Below are positions 11,843 to 38,317 of a stretch of 55,851 nucleotides of DNA, piece after piece. This stretch comes from a virus (Duplodnaviria > Caudoviricetes). Position numbers and translations under genes: made by a program. The stretch lies in IMG/VR virus record IMGVR_UViG_3300025151_000004, positions 1 to 55,851 of that record; one strand, given 5' to 3'. A model generated the notes under the pieces. That model did no database searches. It saw only the letters and a program-made list of their open reading frames with translations, and was not told where the DNA came from. Each line of letters starts with the position of its first letter. Position 1 is the stretch's first letter.

Positions 11843-12685
11843 ATGACTGTATCTAATATCGTAGAAGATTTAAGGCGGACCATCGAATCTGGTGAGTCTT
11901 CTCCTTCTGCAAAAGACCTTGATATCTTCCTCGATGAAGTAAGAGATGCAGTTATCTCCCTCTTTGATAGGAGGGATTCAAGTGATAAAGGCGAGAACAG
12001 TATCCTCCGATTCTCTGCACTTGGGAAGAAAAACAGACAGTTGTGGTACCGGGCACATTTAGAAGATGCCTCAGACCATTCCCTTCCATATGATACACAA
12101 TTAAAATTTACATATGGACATATCCTTGAATCCCTCCTCCTTCTTCTTGTTAAGACTGCCGGATACGACGTTAGTCATATTCAGCAAGAATATGAGATGG
12201 ACGGAGTTAAAGGACATATCGACTGTAAAATTAATGGAATCATAGTTGATTGTAAAAGTGCCTCTGACTACGGGTTCCAGAAATTTAAGAAGGGTGATCT
12301 ATTGGACGATCCTTTCGGATATATGCACCAGCTTGCAGCCTACGTTCAGGCTGATGGTACGCAATCAGAAGGGGGATTCCTTGTCATCAATAAAACTACG
12401 GGCGAAGTATGCTACATGAACGTCCACGATTTAGAGTTACCTAATGCCAGAAATAGAATCGCAGAAGTTAAAGAAATCATCACCTCCAAAGAACCCCCGG
12501 AAAGATGTTATGCCCCCGCCACCGCAAAAAAGGATGGGAAGCAGTACCTCAAAACGGGGTGCGTCTACTGCGACTTCAAAGAAACGTGCTGGGAAGAAAC
12601 AAACGGTGGCCAAGGGCTTATCAAAGAAACAGGCCCGTATGGCAAAACTCGCTGGTACACAGACGCCGTGGGTCATTCATTCTAA
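11843..12685 (+). CDS. PD-(D/E)XK / Cas4-like exonuclease
   Basis: GHID..IVDCKS, Y.HQL..Y, C-terminal CVYC..K..CW. Confidence 0.8.
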   Translation: MTVSNIVEDLRRTIESGESSPSAKDLDIFLDEVRDAVISLFDRRDSSDKGENSILRFSALGKKNRQLWYRAHLEDASDHSLPYDTQLKFTYGHILESLLLLLVKTAGYDVSHIQQEYEMDGVKGHIDCKINGIIVDCKSASDYGFQKFKKGDLLDDPFGYMHQLAAYVQADGTQSEGGFLVINKTTGEVCYMNVHDLELPNARNRIAEVKEIITSKEPPERCYAPATAKKDGKQYLKTGCVYCDFKETCWEETNGGQGLIKETGPYGKTRWYTDAVGHSF

Positions 12686-13115
12686 GGAACAGGGTGATCC
12701 AGACCCAGACTGGTATTTTGGATTTTTGTATTTAATCTATAATAAAAAGAATGGTAGAAAATATATAGGGAAGAAACAATACAAAAGATACTCGAAGGGT
12801 AAACCAATTGGGCACACTGATTGGAAATCGTACACAGGTTCTTCTAAATATCTAAACCAAGATATTAACAAGATGGGCCTCAGTAATTTTAAATTTGTTA
12901 TGATCCGTCAATTTGAAACACGGGGTGGCCTTACATACTATGAGGCGAATGCCCAACATAAAATGGATGTGATGACATCTCGGATTGACGGCCTTGAAGA
13001 AAGAGAGTATTACAACGCTAACATCATGGGGATAAAGTTTGTTACTAAAGAAGTAGTCCCCAACATCAATCAACTACTAGAGGAAATTATAAATGTCTAC
13101 TGCAACACAGATTAA
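12639..13115 (+). CDS. GIY-YIG family endonuclease
   Basis: GFLYLI..KYIGKK, Y.GSS, YYNANI; start uncertain (frame is open from 12444). Confidence 0.75.
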   Translation: MAKLAGTQTPWVIHSKEQGDPDPDWYFGFLYLIYNKKNGRKYIGKKQYKRYSKGKPIGHTDWKSYTGSSKYLNQDINKMGLSNFKFVMIRQFETRGGLTYYEANAQHKMDVMTSRIDGLEEREYYNANIMGIKFVTKEVVPNINQLLEEIINVYCNTD

Positions 13116-18581: not shown

Positions 18582-20840
18582 ATGACTGCATCTTATAAAA
18601 TTGATTTAACGGCTAACATCACAGTCTTGACATCCTTTAAAGTTGATGACTATGCAACATACGCTAGAAGGTTTTTTGAATCATGGGCAAAATTCTGGCC
18701 TAAGAACATTAAGCTAACGGCGTACTACAATGGTGGGAAGCTTCCCAAAGATGTCGTTAGAGCTAGGAATATTTCTTACGTATCTTTGGACAAGAATGTT
18801 GACCTAAATTCTTTTAAGGAAAGAAACTCCCAGTTTAATGGCGGCTCTCCCTATAATTACCGTATGGATGCTATTAAGTTTTCCCATAAAGTTTTTGCTA
18901 TTTGCGATCATGTAAAACATATGGCGTCTAAGGGGGACATGGGATGGTTAGTCTGGATTGATGCTGATGTCTTGACAACTAAAAAGATTGATAGTAATTT
19001 TCTAAATCTTATTTTCCCTGACAGTTCAGATATTGTACACTTAGGTAGACAGGGTATCATTGATTATTCAGAGACGGGTTTTCTAGGTTTCAACCTTACG
19101 TATGATAAGGCCCATACCTTTCTACGAGACTGGCGCACTCTCTACACCACGAATGAAATCCTTGGTCTACGAGAGTGGACAGATGCTTTTGCCTTTGAAC
19201 GTCTCCTCAACCTGCATAAGAACCATGGAATTACGGCACACAATCTATCACCTCATGCAGCTTCTCTCGAAGCTTTTGATTACTCTCCCCTCACAGAGTA
19301 TTTTATTCACTTCAAAGGTGGGAGAAAAAGCATTCTCAATGCTCCGTATGAACCCGGTCCTGCTCGTTATAAGGACATTGAGAAATTCATCGAACACTAC
19401 GGAAGCACAAAACTTCTCGAAGTTGGAACATGGAACGGAAAGAGAGCCCTCCGCCTCATTACGGCTGCGCTTCAAAATTCTGATTCTGTCCATTATGTTG
19501 GACTGGACGTATTTGAAGATGGTAATGAAGAACTGGACCAAGAAGAAGGGAATGTAAAGCAGAGGACATATCTGCATAACGTCAAGTCTCTTCTTAATAC
19601 GTTCTCAAAGGATGCTCTCCTTGAAGAGAAGAAGGTATCCTTCGAGCTTATCAAAGGTAACTCACGGGAAACCCTACCTGATATCATGTCACGGTATTCC
19701 CCCGACTTTGCATACATTGACGGCGGTCATTCAATTGAAACCATCCGATCAGATTACGAGAACCTGAAGGATGTGCCCGTTATTGTGTTTGATGATTATT
19801 ATCGCCCCGATGGCGAAGATAATATGTTTGATATTACCAAGTACGGTTGCAATCAAATCGTCAATCACGAATTACCTGAAGGGCATCAGAAGGGCGTCAT
19901 CCCCTCAAGGGATGGGGTTCAGGGTGGGGGTATTACATGCCTTGCCTATGTATGTCACCCATCAATGCCGGAGGCACCAGACTTTGAAAACGTGACGGTA
20001 CCCATCAAGGTGCAGCCACGGGATTGTGTACCTGATGAGTATATCCACAACAACATCAAGGCTAACCACCTCAATATGGATAAGTGGATTACCAGAAGAT
20101 ACCATTGGAACACGGAAGAAGTGGTCTGTGTTTCAGCAGGCCCCACGATTAAACAGGATCTTGAAAACATCCGTGCCAGATACGAACAGGGGCACAAGGT
20201 TGTATGTGTCAAGCACTCTCATAATTTCCTAATTGAGAATGACATTATACCGTGGGGTTGTATCATTCTTGATCCACGAGATCTTGATGGTATTTCAACT
20301 CATGGGGTTAAGAGACGAGACCTTCTTGAGAATCCTAATATGTCTACCTATTATTTTGTAGCAAGTATGACAGACCCTTCTGTTACATATCATCTAAAGA
20401 AGAAGGGGGCTAAGATCATAGGCTGGGATGCTTATTCTAATGCTGTAGCATCCTTTGAGCATGTAAACGATAGGATGATGATTACGGGAGGTACCTGCGC
20501 TGCTATGCGGGCTATTGCTTTAATGCACACTCTTGGATTTAGAACCTTTCATCTGTTTGGTTATGACGCCAGCATGGATCCTGAAGGCACCTATGACTTG
20601 ACAGAGAAGGACGATAATGATCGTCAGAAGTATTTACAAGTTACAGTCGGTGAAGATAGCTTCATCACCACTGGTGAGCTATTAGCAATGGGTCAAGACA
20701 TGGAACAGTTCTTCCAGAGGGACGATGATGCCGAGTACCACGTATACGGTAAGGGCGGTATGGGCTATGCTCTATGGCAGATTGAAAAAGAAAAGAGAAA
20801 CACAGATACGTATAAATCATTTCTTGAAATTGGAGTATAA
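18582..20840 (+). CDS. three-domain glycosyltransferase + SAM methyltransferase + Maf/DUF115-like protein
   Basis: WIDADV and HFKG (GT-A); LEVGTWNG and IDGGHS (class I MTase); SAGPTI, GGTC..LGFRTFHLFGYD (DUF115-like). Confidence 0.75.
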   Translation: MTASYKIDLTANITVLTSFKVDDYATYARRFFESWAKFWPKNIKLTAYYNGGKLPKDVVRARNISYVSLDKNVDLNSFKERNSQFNGGSPYNYRMDAIKFSHKVFAICDHVKHMASKGDMGWLVWIDADVLTTKKIDSNFLNLIFPDSSDIVHLGRQGIIDYSETGFLGFNLTYDKAHTFLRDWRTLYTTNEILGLREWTDAFAFERLLNLHKNHGITAHNLSPHAASLEAFDYSPLTEYFIHFKGGRKSILNAPYEPGPARYKDIEKFIEHYGSTKLLEVGTWNGKRALRLITAALQNSDSVHYVGLDVFEDGNEELDQEEGNVKQRTYLHNVKSLLNTFSKDALLEEKKVSFELIKGNSRETLPDIMSRYSPDFAYIDGGHSIETIRSDYENLKDVPVIVFDDYYRPDGEDNMFDITKYGCNQIVNHELPEGHQKGVIPSRDGVQGGGITCLAYVCHPSMPEAPDFENVTVPIKVQPRDCVPDEYIHNNIKANHLNMDKWITRRYHWNTEEVVCVSAGPTIKQDLENIRARYEQGHKVVCVKHSHNFLIENDIIPWGCIILDPRDLDGISTHGVKRRDLLENPNMSTYYFVASMTDPSVTYHLKKKGAKIIGWDAYSNAVASFEHVNDRMMITGGTCAAMRAIALMHTLGFRTFHLFGYDASMDPEGTYDLTEKDDNDRQKYLQVTVGEDSFITTGELLAMGQDMEQFFQRDDDAEYHVYGKGGMGYALWQIEKEKRNTDTYKSFLEIGV

Positions 20841-21567: not shown

Positions 21568-21682
21568 TATCTGTTCCATCATGGAACCGATCCTCATATC
21601 ACATGATGATTCCCTGACGGAAGACACCGCCAAACAAATTTTAATTCATAATGAGTTTTATGATAGAGCCTGTGACGGCTGA
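21488..21682 (+). CDS. putative outer-membrane spanin lipoprotein (Rz1-like)
   Basis: signal peptide with lipobox LSAC, overlapping frame. Confidence 0.65.
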   Translation: MKSARLLSACLLLTLLSACSTNGAGIDICSIMEPILISHDDSLTEDTAKQILIHNEFYDRACDG

Positions 21683-24600
21683 TATCTAGGATTCCGTTCG
21701 AGTCTTTCTTGTTCTTGTCTTCTGATTGCAAGAGGTAGATCGTCAACTGGTACATCAATACCCTCTGCTCTTCTAAAGTCTTGCATAGCGGATCTCGTGA
21801 CAGAACCCATATCTATTCTAATAGGTTCTGAGGGGTTCTCAATGTTGTGCTGTCTGACTTCATCCATAATTGCCCGGATTTCCCCCTGAATTATTTCGAC
21901 TTCCTCAGAATCACCATTTGCATTAGCGATGTACAACTCAACAAAAATATTCTTTAGTGCATTCCTGTATGAACGTGACCGGGCATTATAGTTTTGCTCT
22001 GCCTTAATTTGTTGCCATGTTACATTACGGGCCTCAACGATTGATGTCGGTGTGAAGCCTGCGGCCTGTATGGCTATATCAAATAAATCAACCCCTCCAA
22101 AAGCCTCAACTGGTAATTCCCTACCACCCATGGTTACTCTACGGCTTCCCTGAGCGGCTAGTAGTATATTACGAAATACAGGTGGGAACATTTCTACAAC
22201 GGCTAAATCGTAGTCACCTGCGTTCACCCGCCTTTTTACATTAGTTACCTGTCCGATAATACCACCGGCAGGTCCGAAGAAATCTGGAAGAGATGCTTCT
22301 CTACCACCTGTTACAATTTGTACGAGACCTCGTGGTCCTTCAATACCAGTTCTTTTGCCCAACTCCACTCCAACCAAGGAGGGTAGACCACGATAAGCAA
22401 GGGCCAAAGCAACTTCTTGTGGCAACCCAAAATCATAAAGCATATCAGTGAGCATTGTCTCGGGATCTTCATCATCTCCCCAGATGTTATTAATCATGGA
22501 TACAATGTCACCAACTATGGCTACGGCAGGTACACCTATGATTCCGCCAGTGGTAACAAAAGCTAGGCCTGAGAGAAGGGCCATGCGTTTATAAATTTTA
22601 CGGGTTTCAGCATCCAGCTTAATTGGGTTACCATTCTCATCAAAACCACCGGCCCCTGTAAATCCATCCTTGAGAGCCTTGAAGAAATAACGCATGACCT
22701 GTGTCTGATATGGCAGAAACTGGGTTACAACCCCTGAGATTGGACCACGATTGTATCTGGGCCTGTCTGTCTTATCGAATTTAAACTGTGTCTTCTCCAC
22801 AGAGAACTGTATAAAGTTATCAAGATTAAATTCGCCGTACCTATTCTTACCCTCTGCGTCAAACATAAGTTTAGCTTTTGCGGGATCTTTCTTATATACT
22901 TCATAAGCAGCAATCGCCGTTGCGAAACGGTTGAACTGCTCCACCCAAGCGAAGGCAAAGCCTGACCCTCTTATACCAATCTCAACGCCCCGACCAATTT
23001 TTGAGTTTAACAACAAGGGTTGCTGTGATAGCTGACCCGAAACATCTGATAACTGAACAGGGGCCAAGATAGGCTGCGCTCGCTGTAGAGCTTCAAACAA
23101 TTGTTGATCCATGCCCGCAGGTTTTTTTCTCAAATCAAAAGGTTTGTTGGAAAAATCTAAGAACTGAAGACCCCTCGACATTCCCGCTTTTTTTGGATCA
23201 CTTAGTGGGAATTCTTTAGTCAACTTTAATGCTAGTTTAAAACCTTTTATAAGTGCGGCTGTACCCTCTGCTGGATTTTTCGCAATGCTCATAATGAAAG
23301 GCATCGTTGTATGCAAAAAAGAAGTAAGGTTGACCCCAGCAGATGACAGGTTACCACCAAGCCACCACGTAAACGCTATTCGTTTGGCAGTATCAGAATG
23401 CCTGTGTTGTTGTGAAACGTATCCATCTTCACCCCAAGTCTTTTGAGCTAGATCTTTGTAAGCCTGTGGTATCGTATTATCATTTTTTATGGCATCTAGC
23501 TCGTTATTTAGCCTTCTGTTTAAAGGCATTCTGGCAATCATGTTTGCCTGTGACGATACATGTTGATTAAAAGTTTGGCTCAGATTGGTAGATAGATTAT
23601 CTCTTGTTAAATCCCCCGGTATAGATTTTGAGTTTGGGATTAGGCGTTTACCAGCTTCAGTCGCAATTCTTCTTCCAAATGCTTTTCTAAACGCACTAAA
23701 ATTTTCAGACGCCTCAGTAGACGCAGCAGCATGATCCAATATATCCATAAGCGTATTAGAGGTTGCTGGACTTAGGTCTGCAACGAAATCATTAAAAGTT
23801 AATTCAAAAACACCCTTATTTCCCGTCGGAGTATAGTCAGGATTTTCTTCAAAGAATTTATTTCGTTTTTCTTCAGCATTTCGCTGCGCATCCTTAATAA
23901 ATTTAGGATCATCAACAACCTTAAAACCTACCCGCTCCACTCCGAAACGATCTGTAAATTTATACTTAAAACCAAACCTACCTTTTCTCATGGCAGGCAT
24001 ATAAAGGAGTTTGCGCTGCTTTTGAAGATCGTTGAAATGATCTCTAAATTCTCGGAGATCTTCAATTAAGGCGTTGTCGACATCCTCTATTCCTTCTAAA
24101 CTTTGGACCAGAGAATCAAACTTGTCCCCATCTCTTATATCTTCAAGGGTTATATAATCAGGGGGAAAAGTATCGCCTAACTGACTATTAATTTCATCAA
24201 TACCAGTAAGTAAGTAAGCCTCTACCTTTTGATCATAGATAAAATCGAAGACTTCTCTAAGTTTAAAAGCAGTATCAGCCAACTGTGTTCCAGAATCAAT
24301 TCGGAAAGTACCTAAGCCGGGAATTGGGTGCACAATGTCCTGATTAAAAAAGTCTTCAATTGTCACATCCTTTTCATCACTAAGAATCTTTTCAATTGTC
24401 TGTTCGTTTGTGATCCCAAGCTCTCGCAGAGCCGCCGCATCCAATGGAGTGTCTGGTTGTGTAGACGCCTCCATTATAGTCCGGGCAGCATGTAACAATC
24501 CATTAACCTGAGTTTTTTCTTGTGGAGTATGCCTCTCCAAAAAACCTGTGCTGAGCCTGTCCTCAACACCCACAATTACGTTGTTAAATCTCTCTTCTAT

Positions 24601-27309
24601 TTCTCGGGTGACTCGCCCAATATCTTTCAAGCCTGCATACTGTGATACAGCATTACCAAATGTATTTATATAAGCGCCTAGCGCAGCAGCCAGATCTTTA
24701 AACTGATTACCAAGTCCCTTTGGCATTCCCTTTTCTACAAACTTGGCAGCATCTTTCATCCTGTTTGCAACATAGGGTGCACTTTGTTCGGCGCTGGCAT
24801 AAATCTCGTCAAGATTCTTTGATTCAATTAAGTTTGGCTGACGTAGTTCAGATGGTCGTGCCAACTCACCGCCGATAAAAGCACGAAGAATTTGATCAAC
24901 ACTGGTATATTCATCAGCTATGTTTTTATCCTGTAGCCCTGAGACTAGGCTTTCAAGAGCCTTCTTGATTTTAGCAAGTATTCTCCTTACAAAACCCTTC
25001 TTCTTTAATCCTTTGATCGAGTCAATGCCTTCAGCATAGGCTTTGGCGGCAAGTTTAGCTTGGGCTTCTTTTTTCCTCATCTCCCCATCAGGGTATGCGG
25101 AAAGATCAATACCGTTAGCTTCAGCAAGTTCAGGAGTAAGCTGATCTTCCAAGATTTTTGACTCTGATTCTGTGAGGGCAAATCCTTGAATAATATGGAA
25201 AGCTTCTTCACCAACAAGTAAATTTGTCTCTGTTTCTCCGGGTTTGATTTTATTTTTATCAATCATAATAACTTTACCGGCAGGGATGGCGAAACCACCC
25301 ACAACAGAACCGCCCTCATCATTTTTTCCCCGAGAAACAAATTTGTTATATAAGTTATTTACAAACGTACCCTTACCATAACCAACATTAACATTATCAC
25401 CGGCTAACTTTTTTATATCATCGGTAATCTTATCTTGATTTTCTGAAGTCATCTGAGATGCAACCGTGTTCCGAAGTTTTTGAACACGTTCTTGTTTATC
25501 AGCTTCTACTAAACCAAGTTTTTCTACATATTTATCAACTCTGTTGTTAAAGTCAGTTCTTCTTTTTTGTTCAGCTTCGACTTTGGATACAACCTTATCT
25601 AATGCTTCTACATACTTTTTATTAACGGCTGCTCCATCCATAGGTTCTAAATTTCCGAATGCTGGGGAAACCGTTTGATCAGCAAAATCTTTACCCAAGA
25701 ACCGAGTAACCTGTCTCTTAATTTCAGTAGGAGACGACAGCGCAGATATTCCCGGAAGAACAGCTTTAATCCTTGTATCTAATCCTTTAAAACTATTGTC
25801 GATATCTTTATCAACATCTTTTGGTTTAGGAGCGCCTTCTATCGCCCGAGTTTGTTCTACTATCTCTGATTTTTTCTCTGCAAAACGAGTTGGTTCCTCT
25901 GCCTGTTCTCGTGCTGTTTCAAGCAGTTCTTCCCTTTTTATGGCACGGGCTTGATTTGCTCTAAATTTTTCAACAACAGTTTGAGCCTCTGCAACCTGTG
26001 TTTGAGCCGTTACAGGGTCTGCGGGAATAATACTCTCCGGTGGGAGTGTCTCTAGTATTCTCTCCCGTATTCCCTCTGGAAGTCCTTCAGGTAAAACAAT
26101 ACCTTCTGTAGTTGTCCCAGCTTCTGCATCAATTTCAATAGGGAGTACAGCAGCAGACCCGGAAAGGTGACGGACGACATTTCCCGGAAGATTAGCAACC
26201 TGTGCAGAAAGAGCCGGATCATTTATCTCTTCCTGAAGATTAACCTGAGCTTGTGCATCAATAGCCTGTTCATTTTGAGCAAATCTCTGCGCAGAACCTC
26301 TGGCACCTCTTACCTTAAATGCAGAAGTTATACCAGATAAAATAAAACCGGCTGATCCACCGTATAGACCCTGTTCAATAGCTGCGAAACTATCAATCCT
26401 TTTATCAGGATTATAAACATACCGCTCAATAAGATCTTGAGCTACTGCTTGAAAAGCTTCCTGTGATCCTTCAAGACCAGTATCAATAAGAACATCTTGA
26501 GCATATCTTTTTAGAGTGCCTACTTCTTGGCTGATGTTATTAAGCTGATTATAGTAGTCCGCCTCATCAATAATCCCATCATTGTAACGCCGTGTTAAAG
26601 CACCTAGCTTTCCACCTCCTGCGATGAGTCCAAACATTCTTCCCGGAACGGCTGCTTCCAGAGTACCCAAAGCAGCACTCATTAGCGTGGCCGCTCGAAC
26701 ATCTTCTGGAGAAGCCCCCGCTTCTATAGCCCTTTGATATCCCTCGTCACCTACGACAAGAGAACCAAGAAGTGCTGATGTACCTAAACCAAAAAGAGAC
26801 AGGGGGGCAGACAAAGGAGTTGTAGCTGTGATGGCAGCACCAGCGGCAACACCCGCCCCAGCGCCAGCTATGAAACCAAGCATAGATCCGACAGCTTCGC
26901 CAACTTTACCTAATTCTTCGTAATCACGTCCGGGTCTGGTGCTTGCATCTCGGGCGGCTCCCTCGATTATCTCGCTACCTAAATCATTAAAATAACCATC
27001 AAAAAGTTCAGAACCAATTAACTGTTCCGGGACATTCTCGAAACCCCGCACGGCACTCCCAAACGTACTCTCAACGCCACGGCGAACACCTGCAAAAGCT
27101 TCGCCGAGAAGACCACGGTCAATGGCGAACTGGGATGGGTCAGCCCGTTGAACCGCCAGATTTAGATTTGAATTAAATAATCTTTCAATGTTTGTTCCGG
27201 CATACTTAGGATTAAATTTACCACGGACTTCAGCAATGGCCTCTTCCATGGTGACATGATCCCCAAAGGTATAAGTCTTACCAAAAGCATCGAGGGTTAG
27301 TTCTGACAT
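21658..27309 (-). CDS. large internal virion (ejection) protein
   Basis: 1883 aa, last gene of structural arm, Gly/Ala hydrophobic segments, degenerate EEAFH zincin-like motif. Confidence 0.7.
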   Translation of the reverse strand: MSELTLDAFGKTYTFGDHVTMEEAIAEVRGKFNPKYAGTNIERLFNSNLNLAVQRADPSQFAIDRGLLGEAFAGVRRGVESTFGSAVRGFENVPEQLIGSELFDGYFNDLGSEIIEGAARDASTRPGRDYEELGKVGEAVGSMLGFIAGAGAGVAAGAAITATTPLSAPLSLFGLGTSALLGSLVVGDEGYQRAIEAGASPEDVRAATLMSAALGTLEAAVPGRMFGLIAGGGKLGALTRRYNDGIIDEADYYNQLNNISQEVGTLKRYAQDVLIDTGLEGSQEAFQAVAQDLIERYVYNPDKRIDSFAAIEQGLYGGSAGFILSGITSAFKVRGARGSAQRFAQNEQAIDAQAQVNLQEEINDPALSAQVANLPGNVVRHLSGSAAVLPIEIDAEAGTTTEGIVLPEGLPEGIRERILETLPPESIIPADPVTAQTQVAEAQTVVEKFRANQARAIKREELLETAREQAEEPTRFAEKKSEIVEQTRAIEGAPKPKDVDKDIDNSFKGLDTRIKAVLPGISALSSPTEIKRQVTRFLGKDFADQTVSPAFGNLEPMDGAAVNKKYVEALDKVVSKVEAEQKRRTDFNNRVDKYVEKLGLVEADKQERVQKLRNTVASQMTSENQDKITDDIKKLAGDNVNVGYGKGTFVNNLYNKFVSRGKNDEGGSVVGGFAIPAGKVIMIDKNKIKPGETETNLLVGEEAFHIIQGFALTESESKILEDQLTPELAEANGIDLSAYPDGEMRKKEAQAKLAAKAYAEGIDSIKGLKKKGFVRRILAKIKKALESLVSGLQDKNIADEYTSVDQILRAFIGGELARPSELRQPNLIESKNLDEIYASAEQSAPYVANRMKDAAKFVEKGMPKGLGNQFKDLAAALGAYINTFGNAVSQYAGLKDIGRVTREIEERFNNVIVGVEDRLSTGFLERHTPQEKTQVNGLLHAARTIMEASTQPDTPLDAAALRELGITNEQTIEKILSDEKDVTIEDFFNQDIVHPIPGLGTFRIDSGTQLADTAFKLREVFDFIYDQKVEAYLLTGIDEINSQLGDTFPPDYITLEDIRDGDKFDSLVQSLEGIEDVDNALIEDLREFRDHFNDLQKQRKLLYMPAMRKGRFGFKYKFTDRFGVERVGFKVVDDPKFIKDAQRNAEEKRNKFFEENPDYTPTGNKGVFELTFNDFVADLSPATSNTLMDILDHAAASTEASENFSAFRKAFGRRIATEAGKRLIPNSKSIPGDLTRDNLSTNLSQTFNQHVSSQANMIARMPLNRRLNNELDAIKNDNTIPQAYKDLAQKTWGEDGYVSQQHRHSDTAKRIAFTWWLGGNLSSAGVNLTSFLHTTMPFIMSIAKNPAEGTAALIKGFKLALKLTKEFPLSDPKKAGMSRGLQFLDFSNKPFDLRKKPAGMDQQLFEALQRAQPILAPVQLSDVSGQLSQQPLLLNSKIGRGVEIGIRGSGFAFAWVEQFNRFATAIAAYEVYKKDPAKAKLMFDAEGKNRYGEFNLDNFIQFSVEKTQFKFDKTDRPRYNRGPISGVVTQFLPYQTQVMRYFFKALKDGFTGAGGFDENGNPIKLDAETRKIYKRMALLSGLAFVTTGGIIGVPAVAIVGDIVSMINNIWGDDEDPETMLTDMLYDFGLPQEVALALAYRGLPSLVGVELGKRTGIEGPRGLVQIVTGGREASLPDFFGPAGGIIGQVTNVKRRVNAGDYDLAVVEMFPPVFRNILLAAQGSRRVTMGGRELPVEAFGGVDLFDIAIQAAGFTPTSIVEARNVTWQQIKAEQNYNARSRSYRNALKNIFVELYIANANGDSEEVEIIQGEIRAIMDEVRQHNIENPSEPIRIDMGSVTRSAMQDFRRAEGIDVPVDDLPLAIRRQEQERLERNPRYQPSQALS

Positions 27310-33394: not shown

Positions 33395-33607
33395 TCATCG
33401 TGGAAAATAAAAAAAGACTTGAGAAATAAAGCCACCAAGAGTTGCTGAAAAGCCGGATATCATCATTAATGTTTTCCATCCTCCCTGCGCCTCTGAAAGA
33501 GTATTTAAAATTTTACGAGTATCCTTACGCACCTCACTTAGTTCTTTTTCAAGTAAAGCAATCCTAGCTTCCATGTTACCAAGTTCCCTATCTGTAAAAT
33601 TAACCAT
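33395..33607 (-). CDS. small coiled-coil protein with C-terminal TM segment
   Basis: 70 aa, heptads then hydrophobic tail. Confidence 0.65.
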   Translation of the reverse strand: MVNFTDRELGNMEARIALLEKELSEVRKDTRKILNTLSEAQGGWKTLMMISGFSATLGGFISQVFFYFPR

Positions 33608-34739
33608 TGATTGTTAACCATGATGCAAGAGTATAGCGAGTTCCAGAAATAATCTTCTCAACACTGTGCATAATAGATTCTCCTCTAAATACAATTAATT
33701 CCCCGGCATGTCCTCTTATTCCCATATTAATCTCTGGAAACATTAATTCGCCGCCTTTATAATCATCATTAAGGTATACTATAGCAGCAAAGTGTCTATT
33801 AGGAAATTCCTTGTATTTCCCCAAATCATCATGGACTAACATCTCATCCCCCTCATTCCATTTTACAATATTTGTATCCATAATTGAGAGATTTAATCCA
33901 GTCTCCTGTCGGGCAAATTGAACTATCCTTTCTTCTATAACCCCTTTATTTGAATCGAGGGCTGACCAGCAAACCCTGTTCTGCCACTGAGAAGTATCAT
34001 CGGGATTCTCGGCTACCCAATTTCTAATTAAAAAATCACATTCATCTTTATCTAAGAAAGATTCTTTAGAGTAGATGCCATTACTTTCAAGTATTTTGAA
34101 ACTATCTGAATAGTCTATAACAGGGGAAGACCGAACAAATCTTCGTGCTTTCTTAAAGTAGTCTTTGGTCCAGTCATCAGTTTTACCCCGTTTATCAGAA
34201 ATAACTTCTCTTTCATCCTTAACACTTTCTGGTTCAGGCATTTTATAAATCTTAGTATTCTCTATAGCCCCCGTATTAATGGGAATGATTCGGGCAAGCT
34301 GGGTTCCCTTGGGAATAGTGGTCTTCCCTTTGTTAACAACACGGATTGTCAGAAACCATGGATAGGATAACCAATCAGTCTCGATGATTGCGGACATTGT
34401 TTGAATATCGGTATTATCGGAGTTAGGTACTGGCATAACCATGAGGTTAATATTCTTATCAGTACGCCAAATATATCCGGGGTCTAGTGTAAAAGTACCC
34501 ATACCAAAATGGCTTTTAGCACCAGCGCCTTCAATGACTGTTAGATTATCTTGATAGACACCACCGTCCCATTCCACGACAACTGTCTCATTTAGAACAA
34601 GATCCCAGCCGACAGTATTAGCACATGTTAGTGGGGTACACTTATACGCATGTGGAATAAACCAATCTCTTGTTTTAGTTGCGGGTATTATATCTACTGA
34701 TTTAACTGAATCAGAAACTACCGGATAAACTTGTATCAT
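33600..34739 (-). CDS. DUF6065-like domain fused to 2OG-Fe(II) oxygenase (prolyl 4-hydroxylase-like)
   Basis: HAYKCTPLTCAN..GW N-domain; HDD, YLNDDYKGGEL.F, H.V..I.SG.RY C-domain. Confidence 0.8.
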   Translation of the reverse strand: MIQVYPVVSDSVKSVDIIPATKTRDWFIPHAYKCTPLTCANTVGWDLVLNETVVVEWDGGVYQDNLTVIEGAGAKSHFGMGTFTLDPGYIWRTDKNINLMVMPVPNSDNTDIQTMSAIIETDWLSYPWFLTIRVVNKGKTTIPKGTQLARIIPINTGAIENTKIYKMPEPESVKDEREVISDKRGKTDDWTKDYFKKARRFVRSSPVIDYSDSFKILESNGIYSKESFLDKDECDFLIRNWVAENPDDTSQWQNRVCWSALDSNKGVIEERIVQFARQETGLNLSIMDTNIVKWNEGDEMLVHDDLGKYKEFPNRHFAAIVYLNDDYKGGELMFPEINMGIRGHAGELIVFRGESIMHSVEKIISGTRYTLASWLTING

Positions 34740-35485
34740 ATTAATTTTACGACGTACCTATTTCCATAGTCTGGGGGATCAGAACGAATTGGGATATCTA
34801 AAATCATCTCATAATCTGATGATGGCAGTGTTGCAAAACTGTTTGTTTCTTCAACAAGACTTTTTGAAGCTATGATAACTTCTTTTCCAGACTCTTTCAA
34901 AAACTTCCCCAAATTCACATTGCCATCGGCAAAGTCATCATAGAAAACACGGGACATAATATAGGTATCATAGGACATATCAATAGATTCTTCTGTGGCC
35001 ATCTCTTGATAAAATAAGACATCATAATCAAATAATATAAAGTTACAGGCAGATATCATGGCTGATTCTTCCATGGGTTCATACACACAATTCACGCTTC
35101 CCAGAAGATGGGTAATAATTGTGGATGTTCCAGATCCACATCCTATATCACACACCCTCTTGTCTTTCCAGAAATCTGTTTGATCACCCTTGAGCCATGC
35201 ATACTTAATGATTTCCTCATTTGTCCATTCTGAATTGGGATCGGTGAAGGGAGGAGTAGGTTCCATATCTTTGTCCCAACCAAGATATGATAAACCTTGG
35301 ATAATACTGGGAAGGAGAGGTCGTCCCTGAACACATCGGATTCTTTCAAGGTCGTTATACAGGACATTAAGAACAGATTCTCGATTAACAGTTTCAGTTT
35401 CAAAGTAATCAGAGACCAGAGTTTTCCAATCAGGTAGAATAGTATTCTCTAAGACTGCTTCTAGTTTTTCAGCATATGTGGGCAT
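34736..35485 (-). CDS. class I SAM-dependent methyltransferase
   Basis: VCDIGCGSG motif I. Confidence 0.75.
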   Translation of the reverse strand: MPTYAEKLEAVLENTILPDWKTLVSDYFETETVNRESVLNVLYNDLERIRCVQGRPLLPSIIQGLSYLGWDKDMEPTPPFTDPNSEWTNEEIIKYAWLKGDQTDFWKDKRVCDIGCGSGTSTIITHLLGSVNCVYEPMEESAMISACNFILFDYDVLFYQEMATEESIDMSYDTYIMSRVFYDDFADGNVNLGKFLKESGKEVIIASKSLVEETNSFATLPSSDYEMILDIPIRSDPPDYGNRYVVKLI

Positions 35486-36132
35486 TACTTAAACACTCCT
35501 GTATAGTTTAGAGATTTTAGTATACTCTTATCTAGCTTGTCTTCTATAATACGGGACATAGCGGGTGTCATATTATACGACATATAGGGGCTCAGAGCCA
35601 TTTCTTTTCTTTCGGGCGTAAATTCAAAAGAGCCATAAACTTTAGATGGGATGTTATAAGATTCTAAAAACATAATATTATTTAATGTCTCTTCTGGGTT
35701 ACTGATAAGGTCGGTATACTTTACATATTTGATTGATGAATTAAAAGGGTTAGATAACCAAAAAGTAAAGAACCTGTTATAAAGATCGCAGATATTTTCT
35801 AAACTATATGCTTTATATTCTTCGATAATATCAGGAGTATCATGTAATGTTTTAGATGTGGCGCACCTTAGTTTTGTGTGCCCCTTCTCATAACCAACCT
35901 TGTAGTAGACACCAAGTTCCCATGATTGAGAGATAATACTATCAATCCACTTATAAGGTGATTTATGGATAATAACTCTGTCTATACCCCTGATATGTTT
36001 TGGAATATCATGGGGGACAAACTCATGTTTATATCTTGTGTACTTATTATTCTTATCAAGTATAGTCTGTAGATAATTAGTCCCAGATCTATAGAGACCG
36101 CATACTAAAACGGAAGTTTTATTCCCTGCCAT
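35485..36132 (-). CDS. sulfotransferase-like P-loop protein
   Basis: GLYRSGTNYL (5'-PSB-like), KSPYKWIDS (3'-PB-like), VKYTDL. Confidence 0.7.
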   Translation of the reverse strand: MAGNKTSVLVCGLYRSGTNYLQTILDKNNKYTRYKHEFVPHDIPKHIRGIDRVIIHKSPYKWIDSIISQSWELGVYYKVGYEKGHTKLRCATSKTLHDTPDIIEEYKAYSLENICDLYNRFFTFWLSNPFNSSIKYVKYTDLISNPEETLNNIMFLESYNIPSKVYGSFEFTPERKEMALSPYMSYNMTPAMSRIIEDKLDKSILKSLNYTGVFK

Positions 36133-36800
36133 TTAACATCTCGAATATCATCTGTCCTGCACCATTGAGAAATACCAACAAAACCATCAACTATGTATCC
36201 CCCACCAGACTGTATTAAGAGGCCGTAAATAATTTCTTCAGGATCTTGTTCAGAGTCCCACATTGCTTGGGTAGTCTCCCAACCATCTATCGTGGCAAAA
36301 TCATATTGTTCCCCATAAAGAAGGGGCATTGTGGCTTTACCAATATGCTCGTAATCATAAGGGCTCTCCCCCGGAAAGTTCTCCTCAGAAGATTCATCAT
36401 AACCCCTATCTTCCAGCAACCACCAGTTATAATTATAAACACCCCATCGTTCAACACCATTATTATCTCTGATCCATAAGTCATGATCATCGCTAAAACG
36501 AAGTGGTTTATAGGCTCCTTGTCTGTAGATACTCATCATACGCCTGCCCTTGGAAACTGGGACAGGTTTATTTTCTACAACATCCGCAATTTTTCCAGAC
36601 AGAGTATAGACAGGATCACCTACCTGTATATCCTTAATCTCCTTCCACTTATAATCAGCCATCAATACACAAGTGTCCCCCGCAAAACAAGTCATGGGTG
36701 GAGGCGGAGGTGGCGGGGGTGGAGGCGGAGGGGGCGGAGGAGGTGGCGGTGGTGGGGGTGGTGGTGTAAGAAGCCCTCCTACTAGGATAATGTCAGGCAT
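36105..36800 (-). CDS. polyproline (23 Pro) peptide fused to Hint (Hedgehog/intein) domain
   Basis: Pro13-35, then CFAGDT..IKDIQVGD block A, SDDH block B, YGL...YIVDG terminal strands; AAGGA RBS. Confidence 0.8.
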   Translation of the reverse strand: MPDIILVGGLLTPPPPPPPPPPPPPPPPPPPPPPPMTCFAGDTCVLMADYKWKEIKDIQVGDPVYTLSGKIADVVENKPVPVSKGRRMMSIYRQGAYKPLRFSDDHDLWIRDNNGVERWGVYNYNWWLLEDRGYDESSEENFPGESPYDYEHIGKATMPLLYGEQYDFATIDGWETTQAMWDSEQDPEEIIYGLLIQSGGGYIVDGFVGISQWCRTDDIRDVKWQGIKLPF

Positions 36801-36805
36801 ATCCT

Positions 36806-38317
36806 TTAATCATCTCTACCACGTCGATCAATCCAGCCAAATGTAGATACATTGAGGGTATTGGGATATGATCCCGAGAAGCTTCGTGCCCTTACCTGAC
36901 TAGATGTGTTAGTCCTCACTGGGGGAATAGCCCCTGCGATAACACCACGAGCGCCTGTGCCAGATGGGGCTGGATTATCGAAAGCAAGAGAATAAGTACC
37001 TGATCCTAAGTTTGGTTCAGTGACCGTGACATCCGCAGTATCCAGAGGGCTGATATATACACCAACACGATCATTGAAGCCGGTCCCGGAAACAATCGCA
37101 TTAATACCCAGAAGGGCCTCTGTCTTGATACCGGAAGGTGTGGAAAGACTAAGGGTCTTGGCGGATGCAGTAACAGTTGCCGCCGATACATCTACAACAG
37201 GGGTAAACCAATTAAAGTTATCACCTGTCTGAACAAAGTTCTTGACGGAGACATCCGCATCTGAATAGATGGAACCAATCCGTCTCTTCAAGGTATAGCC
37301 TGATGGCATTGTCGGCGAACTAAGATTGGTTGATGCCAATGTTGCAGCAGAAACACCTTCAGCCTTTGAGATTGCAAATACATGATACCATGTTGCAGAT
37401 GTCACTGTTCCGGTATCAAGAGCGTTCGCACCGGTTGATGCTAGGCTTAGAGCGGTGGCGGATGCAAGAGTAATATCGTAAGTGTTGGTGTCAGATCGTG
37501 CCTGACCCACAGCGATTGAAATTCCTGTGGAAGATACAGGGGTCATCCCATAACCGCTGAGATATGATCTGGGTGAGCCAAACGATGTAAAACTCAGGGT
37601 TCCAGATCCGTCTGTCTTAAGAACCTGTCCTGCAATGCCGTCATTACGTGGTAGGGTATAAGTCACATTAGCAGTGACTGTGGCGGGGGCTTGGAGAGCG
37701 ATGTAATGGGAAGAGTCTGCGTCTGCAAACCTTACTTCACTCTCAGCATTCATGGTGATGTTACTGGAGAAAGTAGCTGCGGCCATAGAGGCTGAACCGG
37801 AGACAACAAGGCCACCTGTGATTGACACAGTACCGGAAACTGCCATAGGTACCTTAACATCAATAAGAGAAGTTCCCACAGATACATTAATCTCAGATGA
37901 GGTTGATTTAATACCAGCCGTCTCTACATCTCGTACTGATACACCGTCACACACAACGCCGATAACCTGACCCTGTGGAACCACCCGGCCAGAACCTGTG
38001 GCTGTCTTCATGTTAACAGTAAAAGAACCAGAGGTAGAATTACGGATATCATAACCTTTGGAAAGGGCTGGAATTAGAACATTAACATTTCCAGTCAGAG
38101 TACCGGAAATATCAAGGAACGCACTACGAGACTGATCTGAAGATCCATCGGCTTGCGTCAGAGTAACATCAACGGATGAAACCGTGATCGTGGTATAGGC
38201 GGCGATAGAATCATCAACAAGATCAATGACATTATCATTAAGCACCGTACCCCATGTGTTTTCGTTTTCACCGGGGGTCTGCTTTTCAAGACGAATTCTG
38301 GTTGTATAAGTAGCCAT
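36806..38317 (-). CDS. tail fibre-like protein
   Basis: WG..LN N-terminus, TLP..DG..GQVLKTDGSGTLSF fibre motif, Ser/Thr-rich beta structure. Confidence 0.7.
   Translation of the reverse strand: MATYTTRIRLEKQTPGENENTWGTVLNDNVIDLVDDSIAAYTTITVSSVDVTLTQADGSSDQSRSAFLDISGTLTGNVNVLIPALSKGYDIRNSTSGSFTVNMKTATGSGRVVPQGQVIGVVCDGVSVRDVETAGIKSTSSEINVSVGTSLIDVKVPMAVSGTVSITGGLVVSGSASMAAATFSSNITMNAESEVRFADADSSHYIALQAPATVTANVTYTLPRNDGIAGQVLKTDGSGTLSFTSFGSPRSYLSGYGMTPVSSTGISIAVGQARSDTNTYDITLASATALSLASTGANALDTGTVTSATWYHVFAISKAEGVSAATLASTNLSSPTMPSGYTLKRRIGSIYSDADVSVKNFVQTGDNFNWFTPVVDVSAATVTASAKTLSLSTPSGIKTEALLGINAIVSGTGFNDRVGVYISPLDTADVTVTEPNLGSGTYSLAFDNPAPSGTGARGVIAGAIPPVRTNTSSQVRARSFSGSYPNTLNVSTFGWIDRRGRDD

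What the first reader, a model, noticed from the sequence alone, without database searches (positions are those of the whole stretch)
33600..36800. Polyproline-Hint precursor operon with sulfotransferase-like, methyltransferase and prolyl-hydroxylase-like enzymes
Seen: directly behind a tail fibre gene, four overlapping/coupled genes: 12-aa leader + 23 Pro + MT|CFAGDT Hint domain; sulfotransferase-like; SAM methyltransferase; DUF6065-like/2OG-Fe(II) oxygenase. Known: Hint domains cleave or ligate at the N-terminal Cys, P4H-type oxygenases hydroxylate Pro-rich peptides, and hydroxyproline is an acceptor for further modification in extensin-type proteins. Inference: a RiPP-like tailoring system in which a 37-aa polyproline peptide is hydroxylated, sulfated/methylated (perhaps glycosylated by the phage GTs) and released or ligated onto the virion. 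Substrate and matching enzyme in one operon is the striking part; I do not know of a described equivalent.
Basis: partly seen in the sequence, partly recalled or inferred. Interest (0 to 1): 0.88.

Follow-up and report, generated by a model that had tools for sequence, protein, structure and literature searches.

The report
Phage polyproline–Hint protein with tailoring enzymes
A marine phage carries, next to its tail-fibre gene, a small self-cleaving protein that starts with 23 prolines in a row, together with a prolyl-hydroxylase-like enzyme and two other modifying enzymes; the same partnership recurs in distant phages and appears to be undescribed.

Summary
Four translationally coupled minus-strand genes lie between a tail-fibre gene and a virion structural gene. 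They encode a 231-aa protein (12-aa leader, 23 Pro, Met-Thr, then Cys38 starting a Hint domain), a sulfotransferase-like P-loop protein, a class-I methyltransferase-like protein and a DUF6065 + 2OG-Fe(II) oxygenase fusion.

- **The tract is translated.** Leader and polyproline are under strong purifying selection.
- **The Hint domain looks active.** Its catalytic residues are kept, and its fold is closest to a BIL domain.
- **The oxygenase looks like a prolyl hydroxylase.** Its active site is intact, and its best structural matches are prolyl hydroxylases, led by the Chlorella-virus enzyme.
- **The association is conserved.** In divergent phages, including T4-like ones, this Hint subfamily ends 394–778-aa fibre-like proteins behind Pro-rich linkers. 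Sulfotransferase-like, DUF6065, methyltransferase and oxygenase genes lie beside them, sometimes in other fusions.
- **Controls differ.** Hint proteins with other linkers lack these enzymes. In bacterial MAGs, DUF6065 pairs with the oxygenase and sometimes sits beside polyproline proteins that have no Hint domain.

Best reading: the enzymes modify the proline tract, and the Hint domain then removes itself. A free RiPP is not shown. No chemistry was tested. I found no published description.

The parts
36806..38317 (-). Tail-fibre gene (503 aa) directly upstream. It is context and may be the structure the cassette serves.
   Evidence: It matches PHROG tail-fibre families (phrog_12796, 2.1e-10). 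Residues 1-244 are conserved in relatives, while the C-terminal half is exchanged.
36105..36800 (-). Polyproline-Hint protein, 231 aa.
   Evidence: ORF. Found in 12 viral contigs at 75-100% identity. AF2 model with mean pLDDT 83.8.
36765..36800 (-). Conserved 12-residue N-terminal peptide (MPDIILVGGLLT).
   Evidence: Identical in all relatives except one L-to-Q change in L011, despite many synonymous codon changes.
36696..36764 (-). Run of 23 proline codons that mixes all four CCN codons.
   Evidence: Relatives carry 18-23 Pro, with codon differences but no residue differences.
36108..36689 (-). Hint (Hedgehog/intein/BIL-type) domain. It starts at Cys38 (codon 36687-36689) and runs to the C-terminus.
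   Evidence: Among 76 homologues with the full domain, Cys1 is kept in 76, the block-B Ser/Thr in 74 and the His in 73. The best Foldseek match in the PDB is the BIL2 domain 6y75 (E 2.5e-8), followed by inteins and hedgehog 1at0.
35485..36132 (-). Sulfotransferase-like P-loop protein, 215 aa.
   Evidence: Sulfotransfer_3 1.7e-6, residues 8-41 only. The GLYRSG motif and K57/W62/S65 are invariant in 7 sequences down to 24% identity. Protein-atlas neighbours are named sulfotransferase, score 0.97.
34736..35485 (-). Class-I SAM methyltransferase-like protein, 249 aa.
   Evidence: Weak Pfam hits. The glycine-rich motif around D113-G117 and E136 are invariant in 5 relatives. A profile against the PDB finds METTL5 at 1e-3, then PRMT and PrmA.
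34164..34703 (-). DUF6065 domain of the 379-aa fusion protein (residues 13-192).
   Evidence: PF19541 9e-32. The model is all-beta. R24, W26, H30, Y32, C34, N41, N106, E120, D122 and R184 are kept in 22-24 of the rows that hold the domain, and H77 in 20.
33603..34118 (-). P4H-like 2OG-Fe(II) oxygenase domain of the fusion protein (residues 208-379).

Best explanation
This is a conserved accessory cassette of the phage tail-fibre module.

The 231-aa protein is a substrate joined to a self-removing domain. It has a short conserved N-terminal strand, a rigid polyproline tract and a Hedgehog/BIL-type Hint domain, with nothing after the Hint domain.

The neighbouring enzymes most likely modify the proline tract while it is still attached to the Hint domain. 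Always present is a prolyl-4-hydroxylase-type 2OG oxygenase, usually paired or fused with DUF6065, which is probably a second metal enzyme. A methyltransferase and a sulfotransferase-like protein are present in some lineages only.

The Hint domain then makes an N-to-S acyl shift at Thr37-Cys38 and detaches by hydrolysis or transfer. That leaves a polypeptide ending in a modified polyproline tail. In this phage the product is a 37-residue peptide. In relatives it is a fibre-like protein of a few hundred residues.

What is shown: the gene structure, purifying selection on the tract, conserved catalytic residues, the folds, and co-occurrence across distant lineages. What is inferred: the enzyme-substrate relation, the cleavage, the kind of modification, and whether the product stays on the virion.
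For: 1. Selection on the tract. Leader and Pro run differ from relatives at 14-21 of 30 codons synonymously and at 0-1 non-synonymously.

2. Hint competence. Cys1 is kept in 76 of 76 homologues, the block-B Ser/Thr in 74 and the His in 73. In those 76 the domain ends 0-62 residues before the protein's C-terminus. The fold matches BIL2, inteins and hedgehog.

3. A Pro-rich linker before the Cys recurs across the subfamily, in short forms (P0012, P0020, P0022, P0035, L034/L058) and in long forms (L024, L025, L026/L027, L046, L047).

4. Co-occurrence. All 7 Pro-linker lineages with enough flank have a PF13640-type oxygenase beside the Hint gene: the window clade, L058, L024, L025, L026/27, L031/32 and L047. 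The sulfotransferase-like gene was found on 19 viral contigs; 18 also carry the Hint gene, and the 19th is cut at that point.

5. Variable fusions. DUF6065-2OG is fused in the window, and a PrmA-like methyltransferase is fused to DUF6065 in L027.

6. Controls. Among 50 viral loci with Hint domains of other linker types, 0 had the sulfotransferase-like gene, 0 the methyltransferase and 0 DUF6065; 5 had a 2OG hit, and one of those lies next to a collagen-like Gly-X-Y + Hint protein. The two cultured phages with non-Pro Hint proteins had none of these enzymes.

7. Evidence independent of Hint. In 16 bacterial MAG loci found with DUF6065, the same-type oxygenase is adjacent or fused in 12. Three loci hold an ORF with 9 or more consecutive Pro, against 1 of 50 control loci. 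One of the three is a phage tail-tip locus whose 221-aa fibre-like protein simply ends in a Pro-rich tail.

8. The oxygenase has its HxD...H...R/K residues intact in 20 of 20 sequences. Its top structural matches are prolyl hydroxylases.
Against: - No chemistry has been observed.
- T4-like marine phages carry many 2OG oxygenase genes. Some co-occurrence is therefore background, and 5 of 50 controls also had one.
- The enzyme set varies: no sulfotransferase-like gene in L058, and no detectable homologue of the window's methyltransferase in L024, L025 or L027.
- The lineages are few and were found with patterns taken from the family itself.
- The 3 of 16 against 1 of 50 polyproline enrichment rests on small numbers.
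- The sulfotransferase assignment rests on one P-loop motif and a language-model neighbourhood. Profile searches of solved structures found nothing.
- Why a 12-residue peptide would need a polyproline tail is unexplained.
Confidence: 0.5

Rival explanations
1. Hint-mediated ligation. The thioester at Thr37-Cys38 is resolved not by water but by a nucleophile on another virion protein or on the host surface. The (modified) polyproline peptide or fibre would then become covalently attached, as in BIL-mediated isopeptide conjugation or cholesterol transfer in Hedgehog.
For: - The closest solved fold is the Tetrahymena BIL2 domain. Passages read in PMC8616854 describe it as forming an isopeptide bond that conjugates the upstream domain to substrates without ATP.
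- Nothing follows the Hint domain, so classical splicing is excluded.
- The cassette sits inside the tail-fibre module.
Against: - No acceptor has been identified.
- The L112 fibre-like protein ends in a Pro-rich tail with no Hint domain at all. A free C-terminal tail therefore seems to be a sufficient product.
- No conserved extra domain that could bind a nucleophile was identified.
Confidence: 0.2
2. Spacer only. The polyproline tract is just a stiff linker in front of a C-terminal Hint domain. The four enzymes act on something else, such as host envelope, other virion proteins or small molecules. They lie here because tail-fibre-proximal regions collect accessory genes.
For: - Linkers in the wider family can also be Gly-rich or Cys-rich.
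- Marine T4-like phages hold many 2OG oxygenases.
- The enzyme set varies between lineages.
Against: - The sulfotransferase-like gene was found only on Hint-bearing contigs (18 of 19, the last truncated).
- The enzymes were absent from 50 control Hint loci, apart from 5 with a 2OG hit.
- DUF6065 + oxygenase pairs lie next to polyproline proteins in bacteria that have no Hint domain.
- Fusions link DUF6065 with both the oxygenase and a methyltransferase.
Confidence: 0.2
3. Free RiPP-like product. The 37-residue modified peptide is released as a diffusible bioactive molecule rather than as a virion component.
For: - Precursor and enzymes are adjacent and coupled.
- A conserved leader-like N-terminus exists.
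- Short forms recur in at least five further sequence clusters.
Against: - In relatives the same tract and Hint domain are the C-terminus of 394-778-aa fibre-like proteins that follow tail-fibre chaperone genes.
- The gene lies in the late structural block.
- No export or peptidase genes were seen in the cassette.
Confidence: 0.1
4. Non-catalytic Hint. The domain is a structural or receptor-binding tip that is never cleaved.
For: Hint models match only the N-terminal part and fall below Pfam thresholds. The domain carries family-specific conserved Trp and Gly positions.
Against: The nucleophile Cys is invariant and the block-B Ser/Thr and His are nearly so, across 76 homologues at about 20-40% identity. 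That pattern is hard to explain without catalysis.
Confidence: 0.05

Closest known systems
Hedgehog C-terminal autoprocessing domain and bacterial/ciliate BIL (intein-like) domains
   Same: - Same Hint fold.
- N-terminal Cys nucleophile and a block-B Ser/Thr-x-x-His motif.
- The domain lies C-terminal to the part it releases.
- The thioester can be resolved by water or another nucleophile. For BIL2 an isopeptide product is described in passages read in PMC8616854.
   Different: - No conserved C-terminal Asn and no downstream extein, so there is no splicing.
- No sterol-recognition region.
- The upstream part is a polyproline tract.
- The context is a phage tail-fibre module with dedicated modifying enzymes.
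- Scores are below Pfam thresholds for every Hint model.
PBCV-1 (Chlorella virus) prolyl 4-hydroxylase and its virus-encoded proline-rich substrates
   Same: - It is the best structural match of the window's oxygenase domain (5c5t).
- The virus encodes both the enzyme and Pro-rich proteins. The latter point is recalled from Eriksson et al. 1999, which I saw only as a citation in PMC9301287.
   Different: - That virus infects a eukaryotic alga, and its enzyme is not linked to a Hint domain, DUF6065, a sulfotransferase or a methyltransferase.
- Here the enzyme and its presumed substrate are adjacent genes, and the tract is pure proline.
RiPP biosynthetic gene clusters
   Same: A ribosomal precursor is encoded beside its tailoring enzymes, and a conserved non-core segment is later removed.
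   Different: - Removal would be autocatalytic, by a 194-residue follower domain rather than by a protease.
- No recognition (RRE) domain was detected.
- In relatives the 'core' is the tail of a large structural protein.
C-terminal intramolecular chaperone domains of phage tail spikes and fibres (Peptidase_S74 type)
   Same: Both are self-cleaving C-terminal domains of phage fibre proteins. One such gene lies two genes upstream of the Hint protein in L031.
   Different: The fold and chemistry are unrelated: a Ser-Lys type peptidase against a Cys thioester. The short form here has no fibre body to chaperone.

Membership tests
Hint (Hedgehog/intein/BIL) superfamily | Nucleophilic Cys/Ser as the first residue of the domain | tested here: met
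   Cys38 aligns with intein Cys1. Cys is kept in 76 of 76 full-domain homologues.
Hint (Hedgehog/intein/BIL) superfamily | Block-B Thr/Ser-x-x-His motif | tested here: met
   S103-D-D-H106 in the window protein. Ser/Thr is kept in 74 of 76 and His in 73 of 76.
Hint (Hedgehog/intein/BIL) superfamily | Hint fold | tested here: met
   AF2 model with pLDDT 83.8. Foldseek finds 6y75 BIL2 at E 2.5e-8, and many inteins and hedgehog 1at0 at 1e-4 to 1e-6.
Hint (Hedgehog/intein/BIL) superfamily | Score above a curated Pfam or NCBIfam threshold | tested here: not met
   Hom_end_hint scores 26.3 bits against a cut-off of 32.1. Vint, Hint and intein_Nterm are lower, and only residues 36-93 match. This is a divergent subfamily, so membership rests on fold and motifs.
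Intein (protein splicing) | C-terminal Asn/Gln plus a downstream nucleophile and C-extein | tested here: not met
   The protein ends with the domain. No conserved Asn appears among columns that are at least 60% conserved. In the 76 homologues, 0-62 residues follow the domain.
Hint autoprocessing | Actual self-cleavage | not testable with these tools
   Needs expression of wild type and the Cys38 mutant.
Prolyl 4-hydroxylase-type 2OG-Fe(II) oxygenase (PF13640) | Pfam score above the gathering threshold | tested here: met
   40.5 bits against 27, residues 293-375.
Prolyl 4-hydroxylase-type 2OG-Fe(II) oxygenase (PF13640) | His-x-Asp...His iron triad and a basic 2OG-binding residue ten positions after the distal His | tested here: met
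   H303, D305 and H358 are kept in 20 of 20 sequences; R368 is R in 16 and K in 4. The alignment to P3H1 places these residues on its own.
Prolyl 4-hydroxylase-type 2OG-Fe(II) oxygenase (PF13640) | Closest structures are peptidyl-prolyl hydroxylases | tested here: met
Prolyl 4-hydroxylase-type 2OG-Fe(II) oxygenase (PF13640) | Hydroxylation of peptidyl proline | not testable with these tools
   Needs an enzyme assay or mass spectrometry.
Sulfotransferase (PF13469/PF00685) | Pfam score above the threshold over the domain | tested here: inconclusive
   Sulfotransfer_3 scores 28.9 bits against 27 but covers only residues 8-41 of a 216-position model. Distant homologues hit other parts weakly (0.006-0.009).
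Sulfotransferase (PF13469/PF00685) | PAPS-binding loops (the 5'-phosphosulfate loop and the 3'-phosphate motif; motif definitions recalled, not from a call) | tested here: inconclusive
   GLYRSG is invariant, and K57, W62 and S65 are invariant in 7 sequences. The spacing fits what I recall, but no structure or reference alignment was available.
Sulfotransferase (PF13469/PF00685) | Sulfotransferase fold | not tested
   Both structure-prediction jobs went to other proteins. Profile searches of PDB sequences found nothing. Atlas neighbours are named sulfotransferase at 0.97.
Class-I SAM-dependent methyltransferase | Pfam threshold, and motif I plus the acidic residue after strand 2 | tested here: inconclusive
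   Pfam hits are below cut-off (14.9 bits against 27). The glycine-rich motif (D113, G115, G117) and E136 are invariant in 5 relatives. A PDB profile finds METTL5 at 1e-3 over residues 106-231.
DUF6065 (PF19541) | Pfam score above the threshold | tested here: met
   110.9 bits against 26.6. The family has no known function, and a search found no paper that names it.
RiPP | A small ribosomal precursor whose core becomes a free, modified peptide | tested here: inconclusive
   The precursor-like gene lies beside enzymes. However, homologous tracts are the tails of 394-778-aa proteins. The product is unknown.

The most novel reading that the evidence does not exclude
This would be a previously unrecognised class of phage post-translational machinery. 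A self-cleaving Hint 'follower' domain presents a polyproline tract to a dedicated enzyme set: a P4H-type oxygenase, the DUF6065 metalloenzyme, a methyltransferase and a sulfotransferase. It then converts the tract's C-terminus into a thioester. The thioester is either hydrolysed or used to graft a hydroxylated, possibly sulfated or methylated, polyproline rod onto the virion or the host surface. The result would be an extensin-like appendage made by bacteriophages, with DUF6065 as a new polyproline-modifying enzyme family shared with bacteria.
Probability: 0.3. Interest if true: 0.9.

Novelty: new variant of a known kind. Interest (0 to 1): 0.78.

Why it matters
- Hydroxyproline-rich or otherwise modified polyproline structures are known from plants, algae and one algal virus, not from bacteriophages.
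- The cassette would be a natural example of a self-removing Hint domain used as a handle for protein modification in a virion module.
- It gives DUF6065, a family of unknown function that also occurs in bacterial MAGs, a testable substrate: polyproline tracts.
- It offers an explanation for some of the many 2OG oxygenase genes in marine phage genomes, whose role one paper I read calls cryptic (PMC9301287, passages).
- A run of 23 consecutive prolines in a bacterial host is itself unusual. From general knowledge of EF-P, not from a call, such a run should depend on that factor for translation.
- Automatic gene calls skip the tract, so the feature is invisible in current annotations.

Tried and rejected
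1. Fusion with the tail fibre by frameshift or readthrough. In the window the two ORFs are in different frames, with no slippery site at the junction. I rejected fusion as a conserved mechanism. In L003, L007 and L011 one in-frame TAA plus one codon separates them; see Noticed in passing.

2. Internal start at Met36. Rejected because of purifying selection upstream and the GGGT variant.

3. Complex prediction of the 379-aa oxygenase with the 231-aa protein gave no verdict (score 0.01 against a mark of 0.32; controls were not run). This is no evidence either way.

4. The search for homologous proteins in 'longer' mode found no fused forms. The exhaustive profile search then found many, so the word-based miss was uninformative.

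5. Profile searches of solved structures found nothing for the sulfotransferase-like protein or for DUF6065 (one chance-level row).

6. The wide structural search covered only residues 208-379 of the fusion model, so the DUF6065 fold remains untested. I inferred 'all-beta' from the model's secondary structure only.

7. DNA search of cultured phages found no match. A protein search with the sulfotransferase-like protein found none. A protein search with the Hint protein found two phages.

8. Literature. The searches were:
   - 'Hint domain' + tail fiber + phage
   - DUF6065 (0 papers)
   - prolyl 4-hydroxylase + cyanophage
   - bacterial intein-like + phage
   - polyproline + Hint domain
   - BUBL + intein-like + ubiquitin-like
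   - Hint/autoprocessing/tail fibre
   - hydroxyproline/tail fiber/prolyl hydroxylase

   None returned a description of this arrangement. I read passages only of PMC3556154, PMC5259590, PMC9301287, PMC8616854 and bioRxiv 10.1101/2024.10.28.620165. Subscription journals are not covered, and supplements were closed.

9. Polyproline as a purely translational (EF-P) sensor was considered. I set it aside because long forms use mixed Pro/Ser/Thr linkers and because of the conserved enzyme linkage.

Full report
**1. What is there**

The minus strand between 36800 and 33600 holds four ORFs that touch or overlap.
- A 231-aa protein at 36800..36105.
- A 215-aa protein at 36132..35485.
- A 249-aa protein at 35485..34736.
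- A 379-aa protein at 34739..33600.

Upstream, 5 nt away, a 503-aa protein ends; it matches tail-fibre PHROGs. Downstream come a 70-aa protein and a 612-aa virion structural protein (phrog_3287, 7e-68).

The window looks like a whole phage genome of about 56 kb, of podovirus type. It encodes family-A DNA polymerase, primase-helicase, ribonucleotide reductase, portal and large terminase.

The first protein reads MPDIILVGGLLT, then 23 Pro, then Met-Thr, then Cys38 followed by a sequence that aligns with intein/Hint N-terminal models.

**2. The proline tract is translated and selected**

The 23 Pro codons mix all four CCN codons. Twelve viral contigs carry the gene at 75-100% identity. They hold 18-23 Pro and the same 12-residue leader, with one L-to-Q change.

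Over the first 30 codons the window differs from four relatives at 14, 21, 20 and 21 codons synonymously and at 0, 0, 0 and 1 non-synonymously. One relative has GGGT before the Cys, so no internal Met is available there.

Database gene calls nevertheless start after the tract (186 aa).

**3. The Hint domain**

A profile of the domain, taken from the Cys onward, was searched against 1.84 billion representative proteins. It gave 318 hits at E of 1e-3 or better.

In the 76 hits that hold the full domain:
- every domain begins with Cys;
- the domain lies at the C-terminus, with 0-62 residues after it in 75 of the 76 (195 in P0122);
- the part in front is 21-652 residues long;
- the residues just before the Cys are low-complexity, either polyPro or (S/T)P, Cys-x-Cys repeats, or polyGly.

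Conservation in these 76 is Cys1 in 76, the block-B Ser/Thr in 74 and the His in 73. No conserved C-terminal Asn was seen.

The AF2 model (mean pLDDT 83.8) matches the Tetrahymena BIL2 domain best (6y75, E 2.5e-8). Inteins and the hedgehog autoprocessing domain follow.

This is therefore a Hedgehog/BIL-type module that cleaves only at its N-terminus, not a splicing intein. Scores stay below Pfam thresholds, so it is a divergent subfamily.

Short forms like the window's recur: P0012, P0020, P0022, P0035 and L034/L058.

In two cultured phages the domain ends a 317-aa protein next to the fibre gene (Providencia PSTNGR1) and a 480-aa tail-fibre-like protein (Achromobacter 2-1). Neither has a Pro linker.

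**4. The enzymes**

*Oxygenase fusion (379 aa).*
- It is DUF6065 (9e-32) plus PF13640 (5.6e-10).
- A profile against solved structures finds prolyl 3-hydroxylase 1, the B. anthracis P4H and PiuC at 3e-4 to 4e-3.
- H303, D305 and H358 are present in 20 of 20 sequences that hold the domain. R368 is R in 16 and K in 4.

*DUF6065.* It is all-beta in the model. It has invariant or nearly invariant His, Glu, Asp, Asn and Arg residues. That pattern suggests an enzyme rather than a mere binding domain. Its fold could not be searched separately.

*The 215-aa protein.* It matches sulfotransferase models only over its P-loop. An alignment down to 24% identity keeps GLYRSG and K57, W62 and S65. Language-model neighbours are named sulfotransferases.

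*The 249-aa protein.* It has a class-I methyltransferase core: a weak Pfam hit, METTL5 at 1e-3 in a PDB profile search, and an invariant glycine-rich motif plus E136.

**5. Co-occurrence beyond close relatives**

All 12 contigs of the window's clade keep the four genes in order as far as the contig reaches. Meanwhile the C-terminal half of the tail fibre is exchanged.

A scan with a broader Hint alignment found further viral lineages, at 34-44% identity to the window's Hint protein. Their neighbours were named by Pfam.

| Locus | Hint protein | Neighbouring genes |
|---|---|---|
| L024 | 651 aa, with 13 Pro | Tail-assembly chaperone upstream; DUF6065; B12-radical-SAM; sulfotransferase-like; oxygenase; a second DUF6065; two more oxygenase-like genes |
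| L026/L027 (T4-like: neck and gp15 genes) | 778 aa, with 21 Pro | Fibre-assembly gene upstream; sulfotransferase-like; oxygenase; a PrmA-like methyltransferase fused to DUF6065; another oxygenase |
| L025 (161-kb T4-like contig) | 644 aa, with a (T/S)P linker | Chaperone upstream; two oxygenases; sulfotransferase-like |
| L031/L032 | 394 aa, Gly-rich then Pro/Ser | Fibre and S74-chaperone genes upstream; sulfotransferase-like; a 401-aa oxygenase |

From metagenome contigs:
- L058 has a short form with 24 Pro, then a methyltransferase, then DUF6065-oxygenase, with no sulfotransferase-like gene.
- L047 has a long form, then a methyltransferase-like gene, then an oxygenase.
- L046 is too short to judge.

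All 7 Pro-linker lineages with enough flank therefore carry a PF13640-type oxygenase.

A reciprocal scan with the sulfotransferase-like alignment returned 19 viral contigs. Eighteen also carry the Hint gene, and the nineteenth starts inside the cassette. That scan can only find sequences that share the family's own motifs.

**6. Controls**

A scan with Cys-repeat-type Hint proteins returned 51 viral loci. Setting aside the one that is the L025 contig leaves 50. Local HMM searches in these found the sulfotransferase-like gene in 0, the methyltransferase in 0 and DUF6065 in 0.

An oxygenase hit appeared in 5: L063, L102, L103, L104 and L106. In L063 it lies next to a collagen-like Gly-X-Y + Hint protein. 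L064 carries the same collagen-like Hint proteins, but its flank does not reach the oxygenase.

Many of these 50 loci are more distant Hint types, including tandem BIL-like pairs, so the control set is heterogeneous. The two cultured phages with non-Pro Hint proteins had none of the enzymes within 6 kb. Achromobacter phage 2-1 has a radical-SAM gene two genes downstream.

**7. Evidence independent of Hint**

A scan of one genome per prokaryote species with DUF6065 gave 16 MAG loci.
- A PF13640-type domain is adjacent or fused in 12, counting the clear hits at E 1e-18 or better. Two further loci have weak hits.
- No Hint, sulfotransferase-like or methyltransferase hits were found in any of them.
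- Three of the 16 loci hold an ORF with 9 or more consecutive Pro, against 1 of the 50 control loci, where the ORF is a 55-codon frame.

The three loci are:
- a TadE-like protein with 26 Pro (L110);
- a giant repeat surface protein with 21 Pro, directly upstream of a 600-aa DUF6065-oxygenase fusion (L123);
- a phage tail-tip protein followed by a 221-aa fibre-like protein that ends in a Pro-rich tail, then the oxygenase, then DUF6065 (L112).

The numbers are small, but they point the same way: the DUF6065 + oxygenase pair goes with polyproline tracts.

**8. Interpretation**

The simplest account is that the Pro tract is the substrate of the P4H-like oxygenase and its variable partners. The Hint domain would be a self-removing C-terminal module, and the mature product would end in a modified polyproline tail. 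L112, which encodes such a tail without any Hint domain, fits this end product.

Whether the thioester is hydrolysed or transferred is open. The closest solved fold, BIL2, is described as making isopeptide conjugates (passages of PMC8616854).

In this phage the fibre body is reduced to 12 invariant residues, and their role is unknown. They could dock the peptide to a conserved virion part or to an enzyme. The C-terminal half of the neighbouring fibre varies while the leader does not. That argues against docking on that half.

**9. Novelty**

The components belong to known superfamilies. The arrangement does not appear in any of the eight literature searches. It consists of a polyproline tract, a terminal Hint domain and a dedicated enzyme set in the phage tail module, with DUF6065 as a recurrent partner.

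The cassette is also absent from 50,697 cultured-phage records, apart from two non-Pro Hint proteins and generic oxygenase hits. UniProt names for structural look-alikes are only 'Hint domain containing protein'.

I rate it a new variant of known kinds, namely Hint autoprocessing and viral P4H with Pro-rich substrates.

Noticed in passing
L003, L007, L011 (for example L007:6798-8120): In relatives with a different, tail-collar-like fibre C-terminus, the fibre ORF and the polyPro-Hint ORF are in the same frame, separated only by one TAA and one Pro codon (...NYIIKT*PMPDIIL...). Stop-codon readthrough would make a fibre-polyPro-Hint fusion like the long forms. The last 12 fibre residues (QPTIILNYIIKT) also resemble the 12-residue leader (5 of 12 identical), which could mark a duplication or be chance. 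The three contigs share the same junction sequence, so they are not independent events.
   Followed up: partly
L014 (Achromobacter phage 2-1) 5083-8589; L024:8218-9786; many proteins: Many Hint-terminated fibre-like proteins have Cys-x-Cys repeat linkers before the Hint Cys instead of polyPro. Achromobacter phage 2-1 has a radical-SAM gene two genes downstream, and L024 has a B12-binding radical-SAM gene inside its cassette. This may be a parallel system that modifies Cys-rich linkers.
   Followed up: no
L063:3864-7258 and L064: Collagen-like (Gly-X-Y) proteins that end in Hint domains occur twice in tandem. In L063 a P4H-type oxygenase gene lies directly upstream.
   Followed up: no
window 8569-9585 (+) and 18582-20840 (+): The phage encodes a GDP-mannose 4,6-dehydratase (1.5e-106) and a 752-aa protein with Methyltransf_24 and MptE-like domains. 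I recall the MptE-like domain from flagellin-glycosylating Maf proteins; that link comes from no call.
   Followed up: no
window 33395-33607 (-): A 70-aa protein overlaps the end of the oxygenase gene by 8 nt. It is kept in all relatives at 70-100% identity. By eye its N-terminal half looks coiled-coil-like and its C-terminal stretch hydrophobic. It could be a lysis or assembly factor, or a fifth member of the cassette.
   Followed up: no
window 36806-38317 (-) compared with L003, L007, L011: Only residues 1-244 of the tail fibre are conserved in several relatives. The C-terminal half is swapped, as expected for host-range variation, while the downstream cassette stays constant.
   Followed up: partly
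window 36105-36800 (-); P0001-P0005: Automatic gene calls in public protein sets start this gene 38-46 codons too late (185-200 aa, against 224-231 aa), so the leader and proline tract are missing from the databases.
   Followed up: yes
L025:2195-5209: The 161-kb T4-like contig has a second, internal Hint domain (residues about 352-500) in a 1004-aa protein, two genes upstream of the fibre-Hint protein. A Pro/Ser/Asn-rich stretch precedes its Cys.
   Followed up: no
window 4572-5234, 6079-6849, 12444-13115, 21658-27309: Other genes seen: ThyX, a C5 cytosine DNA methyltransferase, a segE-like GIY-YIG endonuclease that overlaps the preceding ORF, and a 1883-aa protein whose C-terminal third matches a 3431-position PHROG of unknown function.
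   Followed up: no
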